IMG/VR virus record: IMGVR_UViG_2675903654_000020
Coordinates: 1 to 32,559 of that record
Length of the DNA: 32,559 bases
From: a virus
Taxonomy: Duplodnaviria; Heunggongvirae; Uroviricota; Caudoviricetes
Strand: one strand, 5' to 3'
In this document: positions 1 to 32,283 of the stretch, in pieces
Layout: each line of letters starts with the position of its first letter
How positions within the stretch are numbered: the first letter of the stretch is position 1
Made by a program: the position numbers and the translations under genes
The notes under the pieces: generated by a model
Told to the model about the DNA's origin: nothing
Seen by the model: only the letters and a program-made list of their open reading frames with translations
Databases searched by the model: none

Positions 1-486
1 ACGATTGAACAACGCGGACCACAAACGGCTGATGAGCTGGCTACATTGTTTGATACCACATCACGCAAAGTGGCTTCAACGCTGGCAATGGCAATCAGCA
101 AAGGTCGTCTGATTCGTGTTAATCAGAACGGTAAATTTCGTTACTGCATGCCGGGCGGTAATTTACCAGCAGAGCCGAAAGCGGCATCGGTAGCGGAAAC
201 TGATGGTAAAGCCTTTCCTCAGCCTGCATGTGTTGCGTTACCAGTACAGGAAGCTGCAACACAGGAAGATATTAAAACAGAAACTGTGGCGGACATTGTG
301 CAGCCGCTTGAGAAGCGAGTGGATAATCTGGTTCTGCCATCGCTGCGACAGGCAAACCGCGAACTGCGTCGGGCGAAAAGTGATATCCGGAAATGGGAGC
401 GAGTCTGTGCCGCGCTGCGGGAGCTGAATAAATATCGCGATATTGTCGCCCAGCTTTGCCAGGAGGCAACCAGTGAGCAAGATTGA
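1..486 (+). CDS. hypothetical phage early-region protein, 5' end outside window
   Basis: Reading frame open from base 1 with no upstream stop; stop at 484-486; downstream gene is translationally coupled. Confidence 0.5.
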
Positions 487-679
487 CTACCAGGAATTGG
501 CTGCTGCTAACGCTTTCTTGGCGGATGTGCGGGCTGGGGCGTTTAACGACCTTTGCGCGGCGTTTGTCAGGCACGCAAAAATTGCAGGACTGGACGATGG
601 CGATCTCGTTACGGTGAAAGAAGCGACTGATGCGCTGCTGCACTGTGCAGAACAGCTTCGGGAGGGATTCAAGCAATGA
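473..679 (+). CDS. hypothetical small phage protein
   Basis: GTG at 473 with AGGAGG 7 nt upstream, overlapping the stop of the previous gene; the six-frame track start at 443 is TTG. Confidence 0.45.
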
Positions 680-930
680 GCGAATCAAAATGCCAGGTTT
701 ATGGCAATCAGATAGAGCCGTGTGCGGCACTGGCAAGGTCCCTTGAGCATGATGCTGAATACACGACGCGAAAAGGTCTGCTGAAATACAAAATCTATAA
801 CAATGAATTAATTTACTCACAAGACTTGATCATGCTGCGGTCAGGTGAATTTTCTAAATTACCGATTCGAGTTTCATTTTGCCCGTTCTGTGGTGAAAGT
901 CTGAAAACGTGGGAGAACAGAAATGAATGA
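676..930 (+). CDS. hypothetical protein with Cys pairs (zinc-ribbon-like CPFC motif)
   Basis: ATG 676 overlaps previous stop (ATGA); GGAGGG RBS at 661-666; Cys pairs at both ends of the protein. Confidence 0.5.
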   Translation: MSESKCQVYGNQIEPCAALARSLEHDAEYTTRKGLLKYKIYNNELIYSQDLIMLRSGEFSKLPIRVSFCPFCGESLKTWENRNE

Positions 931-1234
931 AATTAGAGAAATACCAGTAATACGTGATGAATATGGCTGCTGGACGCATCCTGAGTATGAAAAATTCTGT
1001 GATGGTAGAGAACATATTTCAACGGAAGAGTTTAACGCATGGATGGAGGAAAATAATCTTCAATGGACCATCAGAACTATGGATGAAGATGATTTTAATC
1101 TGGACGCAGATGGTCCCGATATTGCCTCCTGGAAACCGGAGCGCCCGGAAGGTGAAGGCTGGTTCATTGGTTCCATTCATGACACTGAAGATGGTCCTGT
1201 TTGTGTATGGCTAAGAAATAAGGCTGAAGCATAA
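923..1234 (+). CDS. hypothetical acidic phage protein
   Basis: ATG 923 with GGGAGA RBS, overlapping previous stop; 103 aa ORF. Confidence 0.5.
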   Translation: MNEIREIPVIRDEYGCWTHPEYEKFCDGREHISTEEFNAWMEENNLQWTIRTMDEDDFNLDADGPDIASWKPERPEGEGWFIGSIHDTEDGPVCVWLRNKAEA

Positions 1235-1363
1235 AGGGGATAAACCACCTGTCAACAAAACACTGAAAATTTAAATCAGAAGTGAATTTTATTAAATCCT
1301 TAACCGGAGGGATCCCAGCACCCTCAAAATATCACGAGACCGCCCGAAAAGGGCGGTGATGAA

Positions 1364-1504
1364 ATGCGAAAATTTAAAATAATTATCGAGACTGGAATAG
1401 CTTGTGAAAATTTCAAGGATGTATTTGAAGTGGATGATGATCTGACACCAGATGAAATTCATGACGAATACTGCAATTACTCATATCACGAAATAAAAGA
1501 CTAA
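1364..1504 (+). CDS. small ORF (46 aa), hypothetical
   Basis: ATG 1364 just after a GC hairpin (1339-1357); below the ORF-track length cutoff; AT-rich moron region. Confidence 0.2.
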   Translation: MRKFKIIIETGIACENFKDVFEVDDDLTPDEIHDEYCNYSYHEIKD

Positions 1505-1517
1505 GAGGAAGAATGAA

Positions 1518-1628
1518 ATGGCTTATTTTAGCTCCACTAAATATAGCGTCATTTTTGGAGAATGGCATGAACTGTTAATGGACTATGCAGAGTTACGTGG
1601 TAGAAGTGTTGCCGATGACGGAACATAA
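1518..1628 (+). CDS. small ORF (36 aa), hypothetical
   Basis: ATG 1518 with AAGAGGA RBS 8 nt upstream. Confidence 0.2.
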   Translation: MAYFSSTKYSVIFGEWHELLMDYAELRGRSVADDGT

Positions 1629-1721
1629 CGTGGTGTGAAGTTGCATAAGAAACTACTTTAATCGTCCGAAAAGAACATCGTTCTTAACGGCCAAGCAATA
1701 GAGAGTGGTGGTTATAATGAC

Positions 1722-1749
1722 CCCAACCCCGTATAATAAGGGGGTTGGG
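1722..1749 (-). terminator. GC-rich hairpin immediately downstream of the phosphatase gene (9-bp stem CCCAACCCC/GGGGTTGGG, no clear U-tract)
   Basis: Perfect inverted repeat 1722-1730 / 1741-1749 with 10-nt loop; sits about 45 bp past the stop of the minus-strand operon. Confidence 0.3.
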
Positions 1750-1793
1750 ATTAGTGTGGATAAATTAGAATCAATGTTTTTGATATCTAAAAA

Positions 1794-2510
1794 TTAGATT
1801 ACTTTTACGCCTATAAAGGTGTAATCATCCATTATGTTTTTCTCAATCCTTTTTCTTAAACTGTTCGCAAAAGACGTCGGTGAGAGCATTGTTTTCTCAG
1901 AAAACCTTGGTCTGACATCCCAATGCTTATAAGCACCATCGGACATTGCATAAATTTGAAGAGAACCATTAAAAATTAGTTGATTAATCGGAAAAGACAT
2001 TAATTCAAAATTCAGCTCTGTTGTATTTGATAAAGCATTTGTTAGGATTGAAGATAAACGCTCTTTATGATTTCTTAAATTGCGCAATTTATGCTCACCA
2101 GAATCAAGAAGTTCTTGATACCTCGTTTGATCAGTAGTTAACTGATTTAATTTGTTGTTTTTATTAAAGTATACACGGCAATCACCGGAATGGCCAATTA
2201 ACACTTCATTTTTTTTGATATGAACAATTGTTAATGTTGTGGCAGTGCTAATATCTAAATTATCAATTTCTTTTTTAGCCGAATGAAATGCACTTTCAAT
2301 TGAGAAAAAGGAAGTGTCTAGCGCGTGTTTAATACCACGAATGGCAGCATGAGACGCAAGCATTGAATTTTCAGAGGAACCAACGCCATCAGCTACTGCA
2401 AAGACAATGTTAAAATCGCTATCAAAAGATGGCGGTAAATAAAAGTCTTCATTTTCTTTTTTTTGGGGTTGTTTTAGGCTAAAACAAGCCATTTCAATTA
2501 TGTTCTTCAT
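1794..2510 (-). CDS. PP2C-family Ser/Thr protein phosphatase (238 aa)
   Basis: PP2C-like motifs: VADGVGS metal-binding Asp/Gly motif, GHSGDCRVY, MSDGAY, C-terminal DD; ATG with GAGGT RBS; overlaps kinase stop by 17 bp; AT-rich codon usage. Confidence 0.75.
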   Translation of the reverse strand: MKNIIEMACFSLKQPQKKENEDFYLPPSFDSDFNIVFAVADGVGSSENSMLASHAAIRGIKHALDTSFFSIESAFHSAKKEIDNLDISTATTLTIVHIKKNEVLIGHSGDCRVYFNKNNKLNQLTTDQTRYQELLDSGEHKLRNLRNHKERLSSILTNALSNTTELNFELMSFPINQLIFNGSLQIYAMSDGAYKHWDVRPRFSEKTMLSPTSFANSLRKRIEKNIMDDYTFIGVKVI

Positions 2511-3288
2511 TATTTACCTCCCCCATCACTTTTAAAAAATCTTCCAATAACTCCTGTGCGCTCTGATATCGTTCTTCAGGCCAATGGGCGCAACATTTAG
2601 CAATCAATCTTCTTAATTTTTCACTTCTTTCTGTTGGATATATATCAGTGATAATTTTGCCTATAGCGAATATGTCGCTTTGGAAAGAAAAAAGACCGCT
2701 CTCATGTATTTCAGGTGCTCGATATCCGTCTGTACCCATGTGATTGGGCTTAAATTTTGTTTTGACTTCAGCCCGTAGGGTATCTCTATCTTTTACCAGG
2801 CCAAAATCAGATATCTTATATTTCCCATCGGCGTAATAAAGGATGTTTCCTGGTTTTAAATCACGATGTATGTAGTTGTTTTCATGTATGGTGATAATTC
2901 CTTTTAAAATCTGAATGACAGCAGACTTCCTCTCTGCGTCATTCATTCCATTGTTGATGGCTTCATATAAGTTACATTCTGCCAGCTCCATGACAAAATA
3001 AGGTTTATCACCATTTGTATTAAACAAAACTATTGGTGCTATTGAATCATAGTTTATTCTATTGAGTTTGCATTGTGTTTTGATCTCAACTAAAAAACGC
3101 TGTCTTAAATCAGCCAGCTCTTTTATGGCTGTGTTGTCAAAGTCCGGGCAAGGTGAAAAGTATTTGCGAGCATATGTGGTCACGTTGGTCTGGGCTAAAT
3201 TATAGACTTCAACCTTATATACTTCGCCAAACCCCCCTCGTCCTAAACTGCGACCATCTTTAAGTAAATAATTACCGCACCGATCCAC
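2494..3288 (-). CDS. Hanks-type (eukaryotic-like) Ser/Thr protein kinase, kinase domain only (264 aa)
   Basis: Gly-rich loop GRGGFGEV, conserved Lys in ARK, catalytic loop HRDLKPGN, DFG (SDFGL), APE (YRAPE); GTG start with GGGGG RBS; AT-rich. Confidence 0.8.
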   Translation of the reverse strand: MDRCGNYLLKDGRSLGRGGFGEVYKVEVYNLAQTNVTTYARKYFSPCPDFDNTAIKELADLRQRFLVEIKTQCKLNRINYDSIAPIVLFNTNGDKPYFVMELAECNLYEAINNGMNDAERKSAVIQILKGIITIHENNYIHRDLKPGNILYYADGKYKISDFGLVKDRDTLRAEVKTKFKPNHMGTDGYRAPEIHESGLFSFQSDIFAIGKIITDIYPTERSEKLRRLIAKCCAHWPEERYQSAQELLEDFLKVMGEVNNEEHN

Positions 3289-3584
3289 GGCGCCCCCCTA
3301 ACTCTAAGTAATGGATTGATAAGACTGGAAAAACATATATATCTCCTTTTATACACGTTTGCTATTTTTATTGCAATGCTCCACCTGTGGAGGACCAGGA
3401 AGGGCGATATTCTGATGAGTCTTTAACTGATTGAATTCGCTCCGATGCGGGACTTCCCACATCGGGAGAACATTACCACTAGGGGTAAAAACGATTTGCG
3501 GGAAAAGGATAGTTAAGTAGAATTGCTGCGGGTGCTTGAGGCTATCTGTCTCAGGCATGCCACCAAAGGCAGATAGAGAAAAGC

Positions 3585-3650
3585 CCCAGTTAACATTACG
3601 CGTCCTGCAAGACGCTTAACATTAATCTGAGGCCAATTTCATGCCAGACA
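3585..3650 (-). ncRNA. predicted Sok-like antisense RNA of the hok locus (position approximate)
   Basis: Inferred from Hok/Sok family architecture (antisense RNA overlapping the mok start region); boundaries not resolved from sequence. Confidence 0.25.
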
Positions 3651-3853
3651 CATGTAGGTTAGCCTCTTACGTGCCGAAAGGCAAGGAGAAGCAGGCTATG
3701 AAGCAGCAAAAGGCGATGTTAATCGCCCTGATCGTCATCTGTTTAACCGTCATAGTGACGGCACTGGTAACGAGGAAAGACCTCTGCGAGGTACGAATCC
3801 GAACCGGCCAGACGGAGGTCGCTGTCTTCACAGCTTACGAACCTGAGGAGTAA
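3641..3853 (+). CDS. Mok-like overlapping reading frame of the hok locus
   Basis: ATG 3641 in frame with hok and ending at the same stop, as in hok/mok loci. Confidence 0.4.
   Translation: MPDTCRLASYVPKGKEKQAMKQQKAMLIALIVICLTVIVTALVTRKDLCEVRIRTGQTEVAVFTAYEPEE
3698..3853 (+). CDS. hokD: Hok-family type I toxin (51 aa), HokD/RelF-like
   Basis: Protein MKQQKAMLIALIVICLTVIVTALVTRKDLCEVRIRTGQTEVAVFTAYEPEE matches my recollection of HokD; single TM helix; leader homologous to hok mRNA; intrinsic terminator downstream. Confidence 0.8.
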   Translation: MKQQKAMLIALIVICLTVIVTALVTRKDLCEVRIRTGQTEVAVFTAYEPEE

Positions 3854-5853: not shown

Positions 5854-5879
5854 CTCAATCTGTTATCCGGGGCTATATT
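5850..5879 (+). promoter_or_regulatory. candidate late promoter pR' (TTGACT -35, 18-bp spacer, TATATT -10)
   Basis: -35 TTGACT at 5850-5855 overlapping the Q stop codon, -10 TATATT at 5874-5879. Confidence 0.5.
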
Positions 5880-5940
5880 CCTCACGCGCCAGCAAAATCT
5901 GGCGTCGGGATTGGCGTCCTGGATAGAGACCGCGACAGAT

Positions 5941-5963
5941 ACACGCCGCGAGCGTGTTTTTTA
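5941..5963 (+). terminator. intrinsic terminator downstream of the candidate late promoter (tR'-like)
   Basis: Stem ACACGC / GCGTGT with 5-nt loop followed by TTTTTT. Confidence 0.55.
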
Positions 5964-6123
5964 TTGTCGTATGCACGCGCACATCTGAATTATGGTGGGC
6001 TGTGTGGGGGCGGAGAGATCCGCGCCGGTCGGTTTCCCGGTTACGCCAACCCTGCACAGTTCACCACCAGACGATTGGCGTCGTCGGTGGTGAGTTATTA
6101 AGAAACCACCAGAGGGCGTCATT

Positions 6124-29070: not shown

Positions 29071-29508
29071 ATGAAATATTTATACGACGCAGTAACTAAC
29101 GCATTTTATCCATTAGCAATGCAGGCAGACTATGAGGCGGCAGGGATGTGGCCCGAAAAAGGCGTGGAAGTTGATGAAGAGACTTTTGTTGCATTTCAGA
29201 AGCCACCGGAGGGAAAAATGAGGATTGCGGGTGATGATGGTTATCCCGTATGGAGTGATATTCCGCCACTGGCACCTGAAGAACTGATAAAGATGGCAGA
29301 ATACGAGCGTCAGCGGCGCATAGATACTGCCAATGAGCACATGAATAACAGGCAATGGCCAGGTAAAGCAGCTATTGGTCGTCTGAAAGGTGAGGAACTG
29401 GCGCAATATAATTTGTGGCTGGATTATCTGGACGCACTGGAACTGGTTGATACCTCCAGTGCGCCAGATATTGAATGGCCTACGCCTCCGGCAGTTCAGG
29501 CAAGATGA
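29071..29508 (+). CDS. tail fibre assembly protein (Tfa / Mu U-like)
   Basis: 145 aa ORF directly after the fibre gene, AGGAAG RBS. Confidence 0.7.
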   Translation: MKYLYDAVTNAFYPLAMQADYEAAGMWPEKGVEVDEETFVAFQKPPEGKMRIAGDDGYPVWSDIPPLAPEELIKMAEYERQRRIDTANEHMNNRQWPGKAAIGRLKGEELAQYNLWLDYLDALELVDTSSAPDIEWPTPPAVQAR

Positions 29509-30073
29509 CATCCGGCGCGGTGCTGGTATCTGTTGCAGTCACCGCGTCAATGTAATCCAGCACGGCGTTAAGTCGGGTTGTTTCTGTCTGCGTCAGTTTA
29601 CGTGCGGCCTGCAATTTCAGCTGAATCAGACTGATGGAAGCCATTGCAGCATCAATCAGTGACTGACGCTGTGCTTCTGCCGCGTCTACTGCAGCGCTAT
29701 GCTGTGCATCAGTATCGGTCACCCATTTCTCACCATCCCATTTATCGTATGGCGTTAACGGTGAAAGCGTGACATAACCGTCTTTGATGGCACCGATATA
29801 ATCCACTGTAACAGCTGCGCCATTTTCGATTGAGTAAACAGTCTCATTGCGGTGGTCTTCTTCATGGCTCCATCCCTTACCCGTAAATACTGCCACTTTC
29901 CCCGGAATGTATTCGCCAGGGTCAATACCAGTGGAACAGGCGGGCATACTTACGCCAGTATTAATATATTCATCAGACCAGCCCGTATATTCATACGTTA
30001 CTGCATCATAATAAAAACAACGCATATCGCCCGGCACTGTAGCCAGCCCATTTTCATCAAAAACAGGTTTCAT
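29480..30073 (-). CDS. alternative tail fibre assembly protein (U'-like), inverted orientation
   Basis: 197 aa minus-strand ORF converging on and overlapping the + strand assembly gene by 29 bp. Confidence 0.65.
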   Translation of the reverse strand: MKPVFDENGLATVPGDMRCFYYDAVTYEYTGWSDEYINTGVSMPACSTGIDPGEYIPGKVAVFTGKGWSHEEDHRNETVYSIENGAAVTVDYIGAIKDGYVTLSPLTPYDKWDGEKWVTDTDAQHSAAVDAAEAQRQSLIDAAMASISLIQLKLQAARKLTQTETTRLNAVLDYIDAVTATDTSTAPDVILPELPEA

Positions 30074-30582
30074 TATTTAGCCCTTACTAAAAAGTTGAAT
30101 GCGATGTTACGGGGACGCGTTTCAGTACCGCCTGGGTTTTGAAAAGCGGGCAAAGCACTTCCACCCGGCTGACTAACGCCGCTGGTATATAATGGAGAAG
30201 CATTCGAAACGGTGCCAAACACTACATTACTGCCACTTCCATTTAGCCCTAAAAATTTATGCTCGTGCGTTTTGAAATCGTCTGATTGCGCGGAAAGTAA
30301 CGCACGGCCACTATCAACACCACGGCCATCATCCCAGATACGAATGAAATCACCGCGGGCTTCAGGTAATACCAGCGAAGGAAACACTTTTGCCAGCACA
30401 GGGTAATCAGAGGCAGAAAATTTCGCCCCGTTGAACTTCAAAAACACCATACTGGACCAGCTGTCGATTACAGTATTTGGCATTGCAGCGGACGGCCAGA
30501 AGAACGGAACGCCAATAGCTGGAGCACCTTCTCCCAAACCAACGTTTATGAAAATGCAGAAATAACAAGCAAATGGCATCAT
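30073..30582 (-). CDS. alternative tail fibre C-terminal segment (Sv'-like), silent in this orientation
   Basis: Minus-strand frame open up to 30603 without a credible start or RBS; its 5' end carries the gix-like site and encodes ..NVGLGEG.. matching the ..ENLGLE.. junction in the + fibre gene; stop overlaps the U'-like start. Confidence 0.55.
   Translation of the reverse strand: MMPFACYFCIFINVGLGEGAPAIGVPFFWPSAAMPNTVIDSWSSMVFLKFNGAKFSASDYPVLAKVFPSLVLPEARGDFIRIWDDGRGVDSGRALLSAQSDDFKTHEHKFLGLNGSGSNVVFGTVSNASPLYTSGVSQPGGSALPAFQNPGGTETRPRNIAFNFLVRAK
30529..30554. repeat. right recombination site of invertible segment (gix/pix-like, strong match)
   Basis: TTCTCCCAAACC-AA-CGTTTATGAAAA matches the Gin/Hin/Pin site consensus; located just upstream of the invertase gene. 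Confidence 0.6.
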
Positions 30583-30608
30583 TCCTGCTTTTACCAGGGG
30601 GATTTAAC

Positions 30609-31162
30609 ATACTTATTGGCTATGTACGCGTATCAACAAATGACCAGAACACCGATCTGCAACGTAATGCACTGAACTGCGCGGGATGTGAGCGGGTTTT
30701 TGAGGATAAAATCAGTGGCACTAAGTCCGACAGACCGGGGCTTAAAAAACTGCTCAGGACACTATCGGCAGGAGACACTCTGGTTGTCTGGAAGCTGGAC
30801 AGGTTGGGGCGCAGTATGCGGCATCTTGTTACGCTGATAGAAGAGTTGCGTCAGCGTGGCGTGAATTTCCGAAGCCTGACTGACAGTATTGATACCAGCA
30901 CCCCAATGGCCGTTTCTTTTTTCATGTCATGGGTGCCCTGGCTGAAATGGAGCGTGAACTGATTGTTGAACGAACAAAAGCTGGACTGGAAGCTGCTCGC
31001 GCACAGGGACGAATTGGCGGTCGCCGTCCCAAACTTTCATCAGAACAATGGGCGCAGGCCGGGCGACTAATTGCATCAGGAGTTCATCGCCAGAATGTGG
31101 AGATCATCTATGATGTTGGCGTATCGACTTTGTATAAGAAGTTTCCGGTCGGAGATAAATGA
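30609..31162 (+). pseudogene. serine DNA invertase (Pin/Gin/Cin family), apparently disrupted: canonical start replaced by ATA and 1-bp frameshift near 30908
   Basis: N-terminal part ..IGYVRVSTNDQNTDLQRNAL..VWKLDRLGRSM.. ends in frame 0 at 30962; C-terminal part ..MGALAEMERELIVERTKAGL..GRIGGRRPKL.. continues in another frame (30929-31162); a missing G in the GGG run at 30908-30909 explains the shift. Confidence 0.65.
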
Positions 31163-31465
31163 AACCGCAGCACGTCGTATGCAAGAACGTGCCACGGCTG
31201 GCTGATGGACGTTCGATAGCGCGAGTTTGAATGAAAATCAGCCGAAGGTGATTTTACATAATTGCTACGGAATTATTCAATACAGGAATTGCTTGTGTAT
31301 GCATGGATTGACCTGAAATATTCCCGAAAATTTCTCTAAAAAACTCGAAAAAAATGGTAACTAATTGAATGTATTAATATGTAATGGTATGTGTTAGGGA
31401 TTAAAAGATGAGCATAAATTTATTTAACACATTAATTCTAAAGGATTTTGTCGTTTGTTGACGAA

Positions 31466-31491
31466 AACAGGAATCGTGTTCGGTCTCTTTT
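31466..31491 (+). ncRNA. 3' end of sRNA SdsR (RyeB)-like sequence with terminator; probable prophage attachment core
   Basis: ACAGGAATCGTGTTCGGTCTCTTTTT matches my recollection of the SdsR 3' end; upstream sequence does not look like the SdsR 5' region, consistent with a prophage inserted at the sRNA 3' end. Confidence 0.35.
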
Positions 31492-31626
31492 TATCTGTTA
31501 AAAGCCAGAAGCATTTCCTTCGCTGACTTTATAGTCAACCATAACACACACTCTACTGTCTGAGTCCAGCGTTTTTTAACATTCTTGTTAAGATTATGTG
31601 ATCTTTAGCGCGGGAGGAAAATATTG

Positions 31627-32283
31627 ATGAAACAGCCTGCGCCCGTTTATCAGAGAATTGCGGGTCATCAATGGCGACATATCTGGCTTTCTGGCGATAT
31701 ACACGGTTGTCTTGAGCAGTTGCGCCGCAAATTATGGCATTGTCGTTTTGATCCGTGGCGAGATTTACTTATCTCAGTGGGAGACGTTATCGATCGTGGG
31801 CCGCAAAGTTTACGTTGTCTGCAGTTACTGGAACAACATTGGGTTCGTGCGGTAAGAGGCAATCATGAACAGATGGCGATGGATGCGCTGGCATCCCAGC
31901 AGATGTCTTTGTGGTTGATGAATGGCGGCGACTGGTTTATTGCGCTGGCAGATAATCAACAGAAACAAGCGAAAACGGCGCTGGAAAAATGTCAGCATTT
32001 GCCCTTTATTCTTGAAGTACACAGCCGCACCGGCAAACATGTTATTGCTCATGCCGATTATCCAGATGATGTTTATGAATGGCAAAAGGACGTTGATTTG
32101 CATCAGGTCTTGTGGAGCCGCTCACGATTAGGTGAACGCCCAAAAGGGCAGGGAATTACAGGTGCTGATCATTTCTGGTTTGGTCATACACCGTTGCGAC
32201 ATCGCGTGGATATTGGCAACCTGCATTATATTGATACCGGTGCTGTCTTTGGGGGCGAACTGACTCTTGTGCAATTGCAATAA
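31627..32283 (+). CDS. pphA: serine/threonine protein phosphatase 1 (PPP family, lambda-phosphatase-like), host gene
   Basis: PPP motifs GDIHG, GDVIDRG, GNHE; protein matches my recollection of E. coli PphA (218 aa); ATG 31627 with GGGAGGA RBS. Confidence 0.8.
   Translation: MKQPAPVYQRIAGHQWRHIWLSGDIHGCLEQLRRKLWHCRFDPWRDLLISVGDVIDRGPQSLRCLQLLEQHWVRAVRGNHEQMAMDALASQQMSLWLMNGGDWFIALADNQQKQAKTALEKCQHLPFILEVHSRTGKHVIAHADYPDDVYEWQKDVDLHQVLWSRSRLGERPKGQGITGADHFWFGHTPLRHRVDIGNLHYIDTGAVFGGELTLVQLQ

What the first reader, a model, noticed from the sequence alone, without database searches (positions are those of the whole stretch)
31163..31626. Prophage-host junction apparently inside the sdsR/ryeB sRNA locus next to pphA
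Just upstream of host pphA, ACAGGAATCGTGTTCGGTCTCTTTTT (31466-31491) matches my recollection of the 3' end and terminator of SdsR (RyeB). The sequence upstream is AT-rich phage-like DNA carrying only an imperfect copy of the preceding stem (GACGAAAAC rather than GACCGAATAC). That is the pattern expected when a phage integrates at the 3' end of an sRNA gene and brings a near-copy of the displaced segment. The ryeA/ryeB locus has been reported as an insertion hot spot for foreign DNA.
Basis: partly seen in the sequence, partly recalled or inferred. Interest (0 to 1): 0.55.

Follow-up and report, generated by a model that had tools for sequence, protein, structure and literature searches.

The report
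Prophage right end inside sdsR/ryeA
This is the right-hand junction (attR) of a temperate phage inserted into the terminator hairpin of the E. coli small-RNA gene sdsR (ryeB), a real and cleanly resolved junction but an ordinary example of an integration site already described for Salmonella phages.

Summary
From 31467 to the window end the sequence is 99.4% identical to K-12 (sdsR-pphA spacer, pphA, yebW). Everything to the left is prophage. No complete SdsR or RyeA lies in the window. The window is the start of a draft contig that begins inside the prophage, so this genome's attL cannot be read.

Relatives supply all four att sites: attB (K-12), attR (window, COL60J), attL (COL60J, with a complete SdsR whose 3' end is phage-supplied) and unrecombined attP (phage record PP818812). 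Flanking SNPs segregate reciprocally and confine strand exchange to 11 bp, ACAGGAATCGT (31467-31477), which covers the 7-nt terminator loop.

Region 31163-31466 is the P arm of a lambda-type attP, with two conserved candidate integrase arm sites.

Of 5426 complete E. coli genomes, 237 have the site split. 228 carry this attR type and 228 carry the matching attL type.

Inferred, untested consequences:
- sdsR is preserved.
- ryeA is cut 64 nt after its start.
- pphA is separated from the sdsR promoter that normally drives it.

The site is already known in Salmonella (Balbontín 2008), so interest is low.

The parts
30573..31162 (+). Last phage gene before the junction: a pin/pinE-type serine invertase, frameshifted into two ORFs (30573-30962 and 30929-31162).
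   Evidence: The Pfam Resolvase and HTH_7 domains are split over the two ORFs. The gene is annotated 'pinE, frameshifted' in COL60J, which is 99.7% identical here.
31163..31258 (+). Conserved hairpin-containing segment just after pin, lying outside the attP arm proper.
   Evidence: It is 80-83% identical to a segment at the end of the late region of HK97, phi80 and Stx phages. Rfam CssrB gives a partial hit of 27.2 bits, below the cut-off of 76. The homologous stem in pPE4 is a perfect 13-bp inverted repeat. G+C is 51%.
31259..31466 (.). AT-rich P arm of the phage attachment site (the phage-derived half of attR).
   Evidence: G+C is 28%. The 314-nt stretch 31167-31480, which contains this arm, is 84% identical to the stretch left of the core in the unrecombined attP of phage record PP818812. 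The same arm occurs in IMG/VR contigs L015-L018. It has no similarity to K-12.
31323..31330 (+). Candidate integrase arm-type site (CCCGAAAA), 144 nt left of the core.
   Evidence: The YYCGAAWW motif sits at fixed offsets -144, -123, +61, +71 and +82 on one strand in E. coli-type attPs. Salmonella phage ZC-S1_prp keeps -144, +61, +71 and +82 despite diverged arms. Background is about 10 hits in the whole window counting both strands. Binding has not been tested.
31344..31351 (+). Second candidate arm-type site (CTCGAAAA), 123 nt left of the core.
   Evidence: as for the first site.
31460..31468 (+). Phage-derived imperfect copy (GACGAAAAC) of the 5' arm of the SdsR terminator stem, taken as the left core half-site of attP.
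   Evidence: The same sequence is present in the attP of PP818812. It differs from the attB sequence GACCGAATAC.
31467..31477 (.). Crossover segment ACAGGAATCGT. It contains the 7-nt terminator loop AGGAATC (31469-31475).
   Evidence: It is bounded by 31466 (A as in attP, T in attB) and 31478 (G as in attB, A in attP). COL60J attL shows the reciprocal pattern.
31467..31492 (+). Displaced last 26 nt of sdsR/ryeB: loop, 3' stem arm and U-run, cut off from the rest of the gene.
   Evidence: It is identical to K-12 and BL21 sdsR. The remnant does not fold into the terminator hairpin (-8.8 kcal/mol, z = -0.5, against -15.8 kcal/mol for native and attL). The terminator scan finds it in K-12 and in attL but not here.
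31467..31530 (-). First 64 nt of ryeA/sraC (start site mapped to 31530), now followed by phage DNA instead of the rest of ryeA.
   Evidence: The K-12 annotation places ryeA at 1923066-1923337. Coordinates were transferred through the gap-free alignment. The window is identical to K-12 across this stretch.
31493..31626 (+). Native sdsR-pphA spacer, which includes the ryeA promoter region on the minus strand.
   Evidence: It is 100% identical to K-12.
31627..32283 (+). Host gene pphA (protein phosphatase 1), now separated from the sdsR promoter by the prophage.
   Evidence: Annotated as pphA in every matching genome. Choi et al. 2019 report that pphA is transcribed mainly by read-through from the sdsR promoter.

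Best explanation
Region 31163-31626 is the attR junction of a temperate mosaic myovirus. The phage integrated by lambda-type tyrosine-integrase recombination into the terminator hairpin of sdsR (ryeB), between yebY and pphA.

How it works:
- The phage attP carries a near-copy of the terminator: an imperfect 5' arm, an identical 7-nt loop, and a 3' arm plus U-run.
- Strand exchange occurs within ACAGGAATCGT. The loop most likely serves as the 7-bp overlap region, and the two stem arms as inverted core-type binding sites (inferred).
- After integration, attL holds an intact sdsR whose last ~15 nt (3' stem arm and U-run) are phage-supplied. This is shown in related lysogens.
- attR, in this window, holds the phage P arm joined to the displaced last 26 nt of sdsR.

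Sequence-level consequences (shown):
- The attR remnant is neither a functional sRNA nor a terminator.
- The ryeA promoter and its first 64 nt stay at attR and now point into phage DNA.
- pphA lies about 43 kb from the sdsR promoter.

Functional consequences (inferred): loss or alteration of RyeA, and altered pphA transcription.
For: Host/phage boundary at 31466/31467.

Four-site comparison: attB (K-12), attP (PP818812), attL and attR (COL60J) and attR (window) show reciprocal segregation of the three flanking SNPs.

attL holds a complete SdsR:
- COL60J attL scores 118 bits for SdsR and 179 bits for RyeA, directly followed by the P' arm, an integrase and an excisionase.
- Three further attL loci, including Shigella flexneri, have full SdsR (81-114 bits). 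An attR-type locus has none.

Integrase: it has lambda Arm-DNA-binding, central and catalytic domains, and is about 41% identical to HK022 Int.

AttP architecture: arm-site candidates and an IHF consensus sit at fixed offsets in diverged attPs, including a Salmonella phage whose Int is 74.5% identical.

Population: 5189 of 5426 genomes have an intact attB. 228 have this attR type and 228 have the matching attL type.

Terminator: the hairpin is kept at attB and attL and lost at attR.

Prophage: the window is colinear with the COL60J prophage. Its late region is 97.6% identical to Escherichia phage vB_EcoM-611R5, a deposited phage record that carries a different integration end.
Against: - The integrase, excisionase and attL of this particular genome are not in the window. 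The contig starts inside the prophage, so the left end is inferred from relatives.
- No integrase binding, excision or transcript data exist here.
- The strict IHF consensus is absent from the P arm in the window.
- pin is a pseudogene, so the prophage may be partly decayed.
- The only phage-form attP with a name is labelled an Actinobacillus phage, a doubtful label.
Confidence: 0.93

Rival explanations
1. The whole region is native host sequence with an intact sdsR; the stem difference is only strain variation.
For: Host identity does begin a few bases before the core (CGAA at 31462-31465).
Against: In the 27 positions left of 31467, 22 differ from K-12. There is no SdsR or RyeA above threshold. 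A phage invertase ends 300 nt upstream. The yebY-sdsR segment is absent from the window. 5189 genomes show the uninterrupted arrangement, which differs from this one.
Confidence: 0.005
2. The junction arose by illegitimate recombination, a deletion or an IS-mediated rearrangement that truncated sdsR, not by site-specific integration.
For: attL is not visible in this contig. An IS3 element sits in the related COL60J prophage.
Against: An unrecombined attP with the same P arm, core and P' arm exists. The SNP pattern at attL and attR is reciprocal. 228 independently assembled complete genomes share both junction types. The window has no IS at the junction.
Confidence: 0.02
3. The site-specific integration is real, but the element is now a fixed, excision-incompetent cryptic prophage. 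attR would then be a fossil scar, not a working recombination site.
For: pin is frameshifted in the window and in COL60J. COL60J additionally carries an IS3 in its tail-fibre region.
Against: The P arm, its candidate arm sites and the core are intact and match phage-form attPs. The structural module is 97.6% identical to Escherichia phage vB_EcoM-611R5, a deposited phage record. The element is present in only about 4% of genomes with varied cargo, which suggests ongoing mobility.
Confidence: 0.2
4. The junction is an assembly artefact (a chimeric draft contig).
For: The source is a draft assembly whose contig breaks inside the prophage.
Against: The same 601-nt junction is present at up to 99.7% identity in complete genomes, with at least 80% coverage in 228 of them.
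Confidence: 0.005

Closest known systems
Integration of phage PhiW104 and other foreign DNA into the last 23 bp of ryeB in Salmonella enterica (Balbontín et al. 2008, J Bacteriol 190:4075; seen only through PMC7380047, PMC3603311 and the reference list of PMC3333887)
   Same: Same gene and same sub-site, the 3' terminal hairpin and U-run of ryeB/sdsR, which is internal to ryeA. sdsR is kept and the ryeA 5' part is changed. A Salmonella phage record (ZC-S1_prp), whose Int is 74.5% identical, has the same core and arm layout.
   Different: The host is E. coli, where pphA lies downstream and depends on the sdsR promoter. The attP and attB sequences differ at three positions, so the unambiguous crossover segment is 11 bp. 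The phage is a mosaic myovirus with a Rac-like early region. The original paper could not be read, so sequence-level identity with PhiW104 is untested.
Bacteriophage lambda / HK022 attP-Int system (heterobivalent tyrosine integrase)
   Same: The Int has arm-binding, core-binding and catalytic domains and is about 41% identical to HK022 Int. The arms are AT-rich. There are two repeated sites in the P arm, three tandem sites in the P' arm, and an IHF consensus between the core and the P' sites. This resembles the lambda layout of P1/P2 and H'/P'1-3 (established knowledge). An excisionase gene lies next to int.
   Different: The core and arm site sequences are different. The attB is the hairpin of an RNA gene, not the gal-bio spacer. 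No binding data exist.
Integration into the 3' ends of tRNA and tmRNA genes with phage-borne replacement of the displaced end (Williams 2002, cited; established knowledge)
   Same: The target is a symmetric stem with a 7-nt loop in a conserved, single-copy RNA gene. The phage carries a surrogate 3' end, so the RNA gene survives integration.
   Different: The target is a Hfq-dependent sRNA terminator hairpin, not a tRNA anticodon or T-loop. An antisense gene (ryeA) and a read-through-dependent downstream gene (pphA) are disrupted or uncoupled.

Membership tests
Rfam RF00111 SdsR_RyeB | Covariance-model score at or above the gathering cut-off (38 bits) over the full model | tested here: not met
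   The window scores 19.6 bits at 31414-31492; only the terminator part aligns. Nothing is found at gathering threshold. COL60J attL scores 118.1 bits. The window therefore holds a fragment, not the gene.
Rfam RF00101 SraC_RyeA | Covariance-model score at or above the gathering cut-off (37 bits) | tested here: not met
   The window scores 24.8 bits at 31408-31496 on the minus strand; only the first ~40 model positions truly match. COL60J attL scores 179.1 bits.
Lambda-type prophage attachment junction (attR) | One side is identical to the unoccupied host locus and the other side to the phage attP arm, joined at a short common core | tested here: met
Lambda-type prophage attachment junction (attR) | A reciprocal attL exists at the other prophage end with the same core | tested here: inconclusive
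   Met in relatives: COL60J, three further loci, and 228 versus 228 genomes. It cannot be tested for this genome because the contig starts inside the prophage and the window has no second core copy.
Lambda-type prophage attachment junction (attR) | A tyrosine integrase with an arm-binding domain, and an excisionase, encoded next to attP/attL | tested here: inconclusive
   Present in COL60J and PP818812: PF00589, PF22022 and PF09003. These genes are not within the window.
Lambda-type prophage attachment junction (attR) | Arm-type integrase sites and IHF sites in the arms | tested here: inconclusive
   YYCGAAWW motifs lie at conserved offsets (-144 and -123 in the window). An IHF consensus lies at +38 in the P' arm of relatives. 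No strict IHF consensus occurs in the window's P arm. Protein binding cannot be tested here.
ryeB/sdsR insertion hot spot (Balbontín 2008) | The insertion point lies within the last ~23 bp of ryeB, internal to ryeA | tested here: met
   The crossover at 31467-31477 lies 16-26 nt from the sdsR 3' end and 54-64 nt from the ryeA start.
ryeB/sdsR insertion hot spot (Balbontín 2008) | Lysogeny lowers ryeA expression and raises ryeB expression | not testable with these tools
   Only the sequence-level split of ryeA is shown. The expression claim comes from the review summary.
Rfam RF02799 CssrB | Score at or above the gathering cut-off (76 bits) | tested here: not met
   27.2 bits, covering only the last 40 model positions.

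The most novel reading that the evidence does not exclude
Integration at this site acts as regulatory lysogenic conversion in about 4% of E. coli.

- It cuts ryeA (the antisense antagonist of SdsR) 64 nt after its start.
- Because the attR remnant no longer forms a terminator, pphA is left open to read-through from the co-oriented pin gene and late operon.

Lysogens would then have more SdsR, little or altered RyeA, and a pphA that responds to phage rather than stationary-phase signals. A promoter-like element in the P' arm might drive a shortened RyeA substitute.
Probability: 0.3. Interest if true: 0.45.

Novelty: new member of a known kind. Interest (0 to 1): 0.2.

Why it matters
It documents, at base resolution and with all four att sites, that the sdsR/ryeB terminator is a live phage attachment site in E. 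coli and Shigella as well as in Salmonella. About 4% of complete E. coli genomes are occupied.

In E. coli the insertion has an added, untested implication. Choi et al. 2019 report that pphA is transcribed mainly from the sdsR promoter and that RyeA counteracts SdsR. Lysogens should therefore differ from non-lysogens in RyeA and pphA expression.

For annotation, it explains why a 26-nt SdsR fragment sits upstream of pphA, and it warns against calling that fragment an sRNA gene.

Tried and rejected
- I looked for attL in the window: there is no second core copy, even allowing 3 mismatches, and no SdsR.
- I tried to find the source genome among complete E. coli genomes: no record covers window 1-3000. 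The best partial hit (bR_120_Kylling) is an unrelated lambdoid prophage next to yccA that shares only cargo genes.
- An exact-protein look-up identified the source contig (CYFR01000032.1, GCA_001285905.1), but it starts at window position 1. Relatives' 10-kb flanks stop at the DUF1187 gene, which in COL60J lies just short of xis and int.
- The closest phages by structural genes (vB_EcoM-611R5 and relatives) have a different integration end, next to yfhH, pgpC and tadA. They do not inform this att site.
- Balbontín 2008 could not be opened by DOI or by PMC id.
- A literature search for sdsR with prophage, integrase and attB, requiring three of the four terms, listed no paper containing the word sdsR among the 15 shown, so it gave nothing relevant.
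- The species-representative genome scan for the P' arm found only one Shigella flexneri and one E. coli genome, so no wider host range was shown.

Full report
**1. The observation**

The string ACAGGAATCGTGTTCGGTCTCTTTTT occurs once in the window, at 31467-31492. None of 100 dinucleotide-preserving shuffles gave a match. Aligned with K-12 MG1655 and BL21, it is the exact 3' end of sdsR: loop, 3' stem arm and U-run.

An ungapped comparison with K-12 gives a sharp boundary.
- From 31467 to the window end (1093 nt) there are 7 mismatches, the first at 31846.
- In the 27 positions before 31467, 22 differ.

To the right lie the native sdsR-pphA spacer, pphA (31627-32283) and yebW. To the left, GACGAAAAC (31460-31468) replaces the native GACCGAATAC. 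The 208 nt upstream are 28% G+C. The phage invertase gene pin ends at 31162.

Rfam finds no SdsR or RyeA at gathering threshold anywhere in the window. At a permissive threshold only fragments appear: SdsR 19.6 bits against a cut-off of 38, and RyeA 24.8 bits against 37.

**2. What it is**

All 5426 complete E. coli genomes match the window from about 31462 rightwards. Only 228 also match the phage side over at least 80% of the 601-nt query spanning the junction.

One of these is strain COL60J, 99.7% identical across the junction. It has a prophage of about 43.4 kb lying exactly between yebY and pphA. Its left end carries a complete SdsR (118 bits) and RyeA (179 bits). These are followed at once by foreign DNA, a tyrosine integrase and an excisionase.

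A phage-form record, PP818812, holds the unrecombined attP. It is labelled Actinobacillus phage vB_Apl-pPE4, but its Int is 97.5% identical to the COL60J prophage Int. From left to right it reads:
- a left arm 84% identical to window 31167-31480;
- the core;
- a right arm equal to the COL60J attL arm;
- the integrase gene.

The four sites read as follows (lower case marks the three SNPs that distinguish attB from attP):

| Site | Sequence |
|---|---|
| attB | GGACCGAAtACAGGAATCGTgTTCGGTCTcTTTTTATCTG |
| attP | TGAC-GAAaACAGGAATCGTaTTCGGTCTtTTTTTAATTG |
| attL | GGACCGAAtACAGGAATCGTaTTCGGTCTtTTTTTAATTG |
| attR (window and COL60J) | TGAC-GAAaACAGGAATCGTgTTCGGTCTcTTTTTATCTG |

The three SNPs segregate reciprocally between attL and attR. 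Strand exchange therefore took place within ACAGGAATCGT (31467-31477).

Six IMG/VR contigs carry the same core. They have attP-, attL- or attR-type flanks.

**3. Population check of the left-end repeat**

- A 301-nt K-12 attB probe is uninterrupted in 5189 of 5426 genomes and split in 237.
- An attL probe (sdsR plus 100 nt of P' arm) is covered at 80% or more in exactly 228 genomes. This equals the count for the window-type attR.
- Every genome retains the sdsR part.
- Three more attL loci, including one from Shigella flexneri, have full SdsR at 81-114 bits. An attR-type locus has none.

The window's own attL cannot be read. An exact-protein look-up shows that the window is the first 32,559 nt of draft contig CYFR01000032.1 (GCA_001285905.1), which begins inside the prophage. 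The window is colinear with the COL60J prophage from the DUF1627 gene to attR. The exceptions are some cargo and an IS3 in COL60J.

**4. Anatomy of 31163-31626**

- **31163-31258.** This is a hairpin segment shared at 80-83% identity with the end of the late region of HK97, phi80 and Stx phages. It explains a partial, sub-threshold CssrB hit.
- **31259-31466.** This is the P arm of attP.
- **Arm-site candidates.** The motif YYCGAAWW lies at -144 and -123 from the core in the window (31323 and 31344).
  - In phage-form attPs it also lies at +61, +71 and +82, always on the same strand, with an IHF consensus at +38.
  - Salmonella phage ZC-S1_prp (Int 74.5% identical) keeps the -144, +61, +71 and +82 sites and the IHF consensus, although its arms have diverged; it lacks a match at -123.
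  - Background frequency is about ten hits in the whole window, counting both strands.
- **Integrase type.** The Int has the lambda Arm-DNA-binding domain and is about 41% identical to HK022 Int. This layout therefore matches a lambda-type attP, with P1/P2 on one side and H' plus P'1-3 on the other (established knowledge). Binding itself is inferred.
- **Core geometry.** The crossover segment contains the 7-nt terminator loop, flanked by the two stem arms. That geometry fits a 7-bp overlap region between inverted core sites, as in tRNA-gene attachment sites (inference; Williams 2002 as cited).

**5. Consequences**

*Shown by sequence and folding*
- The native and attL terminators both fold as an 11-bp stem with a 7-nt loop at -15.8 kcal/mol. 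The attR remnant does not fold this way (-8.8 kcal/mol, z = -0.5).
- The terminator scan finds the hairpin in K-12 and in attL but nothing in window 30900-31700.
- The K-12 ryeA start maps to window 31530 on the minus strand. The ryeA promoter and its first 64 nt therefore remain at attR and now point into the P arm and the 3' end of pin. The body and terminator of ryeA sit at attL.

*Inferred*
- Native RyeA is lost or replaced. The review summary of Balbontín 2008 reports lower ryeA and higher ryeB expression in PhiW104 lysogens.
- Choi et al. 2019 found that pphA is transcribed mainly by read-through from the sdsR promoter. The prophage should therefore uncouple pphA from that promoter. With no terminator at attR, pphA would be exposed to transcription from the co-oriented pin gene and late operon.

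**6. Comparison with what is known**

Phage integration into the last 23 bp of ryeB has been described for Salmonella (Balbontín et al. 2008). The present case is the same sub-site in E. coli, with a related integrase and attP module.

It does not qualify as an SdsR or RyeA gene copy, because both Rfam cut-offs are missed. It does qualify as an attR by the junction criteria. The left-end criteria are met only in relatives.

**7. Verdict**

- The coordinates are off by one base.
- The replacement copy of the sdsR 3' end lies at attL, outside the window.

The finding is a well-resolved but ordinary member of a known kind. The only moderately new angle is the predicted rewiring of ryeA and pphA in about 4% of E. 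coli genomes, which needs transcript data.

Noticed in passing
window 1-32559: The window is the first 32,559 nt of draft contig CYFR01000032.1 (45,493 nt; assembly GCA_001285905.1). The contig begins inside the prophage's DUF1627 gene, so the integrase end lies on another contig.
   Followed up: partly
window 30573-31162: The pin/pinE invertase is frameshifted; the Resolvase and HTH_7 domains are split over two ORFs. The same defect is annotated in complete genome COL60J, so it is probably real and not a sequencing error. Oppositely oriented tail-fibre assembly genes lie just upstream (29071-30582), as expected for an invertible segment that may now be locked.
   Followed up: partly
window 31157-31258: A hairpin lies immediately after pin. 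It gives a partial CssrB hit (27.2 bits, below cut-off) and is 80-83% identical to a segment at the end of the late region in HK97, phi80 and many Stx phages. By my reading of the alignment, the stem shows compensatory differences between the window, pPE4 and L015. It may be a shared late-operon terminator or processing element.
   Followed up: partly
L005 (PP818812, 'Actinobacillus phage vB_Apl-pPE4') 2997-4534: This record's attP mimics the enterobacterial sdsR terminator, and its integrase is 97.5% identical to that of an E. coli prophage. The Actinobacillus host label looks doubtful.
   Followed up: no
L004 (COL60J) 5941-5968, minus strand (P' arm, not in window): A promoter-like TTTGCA-16 nt-TACAAT points antisense into sdsR from the phage side of attL. 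It could drive a shortened RyeA substitute in lysogens. By my reading of the alignments, the sequence is conserved in the P' arms of pPE4 and L016.
   Followed up: no
window 3530-3853 and 5873-6071: The prophage carries a hok/sok-type toxin-antisense pair (sok, 118 bits) and an isrK / C4-antisense immunity-type RNA cluster (75.5, 66.7 and 50.5 bits) upstream of an ORF6N (antirepressor-like) gene.
   Followed up: no
window 1794-3288, minus strand: A Ser/Thr protein kinase plus PP2C phosphatase gene pair lies in the early region. It is absent from the otherwise colinear COL60J prophage, which carries an ATP-binding/STAS-like pair there instead. This looks like a swappable cargo slot, perhaps for defence genes.
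   Followed up: no
L006/L007 (ON470588, vB_EcoM-611R5): The phage record closest in structural genes (97.6% identity) ends in the host genes yfhH, pgpC and tadA. It therefore looks like a predicted prophage with a different integration module, which illustrates module exchange between identical virion cassettes.
   Followed up: partly
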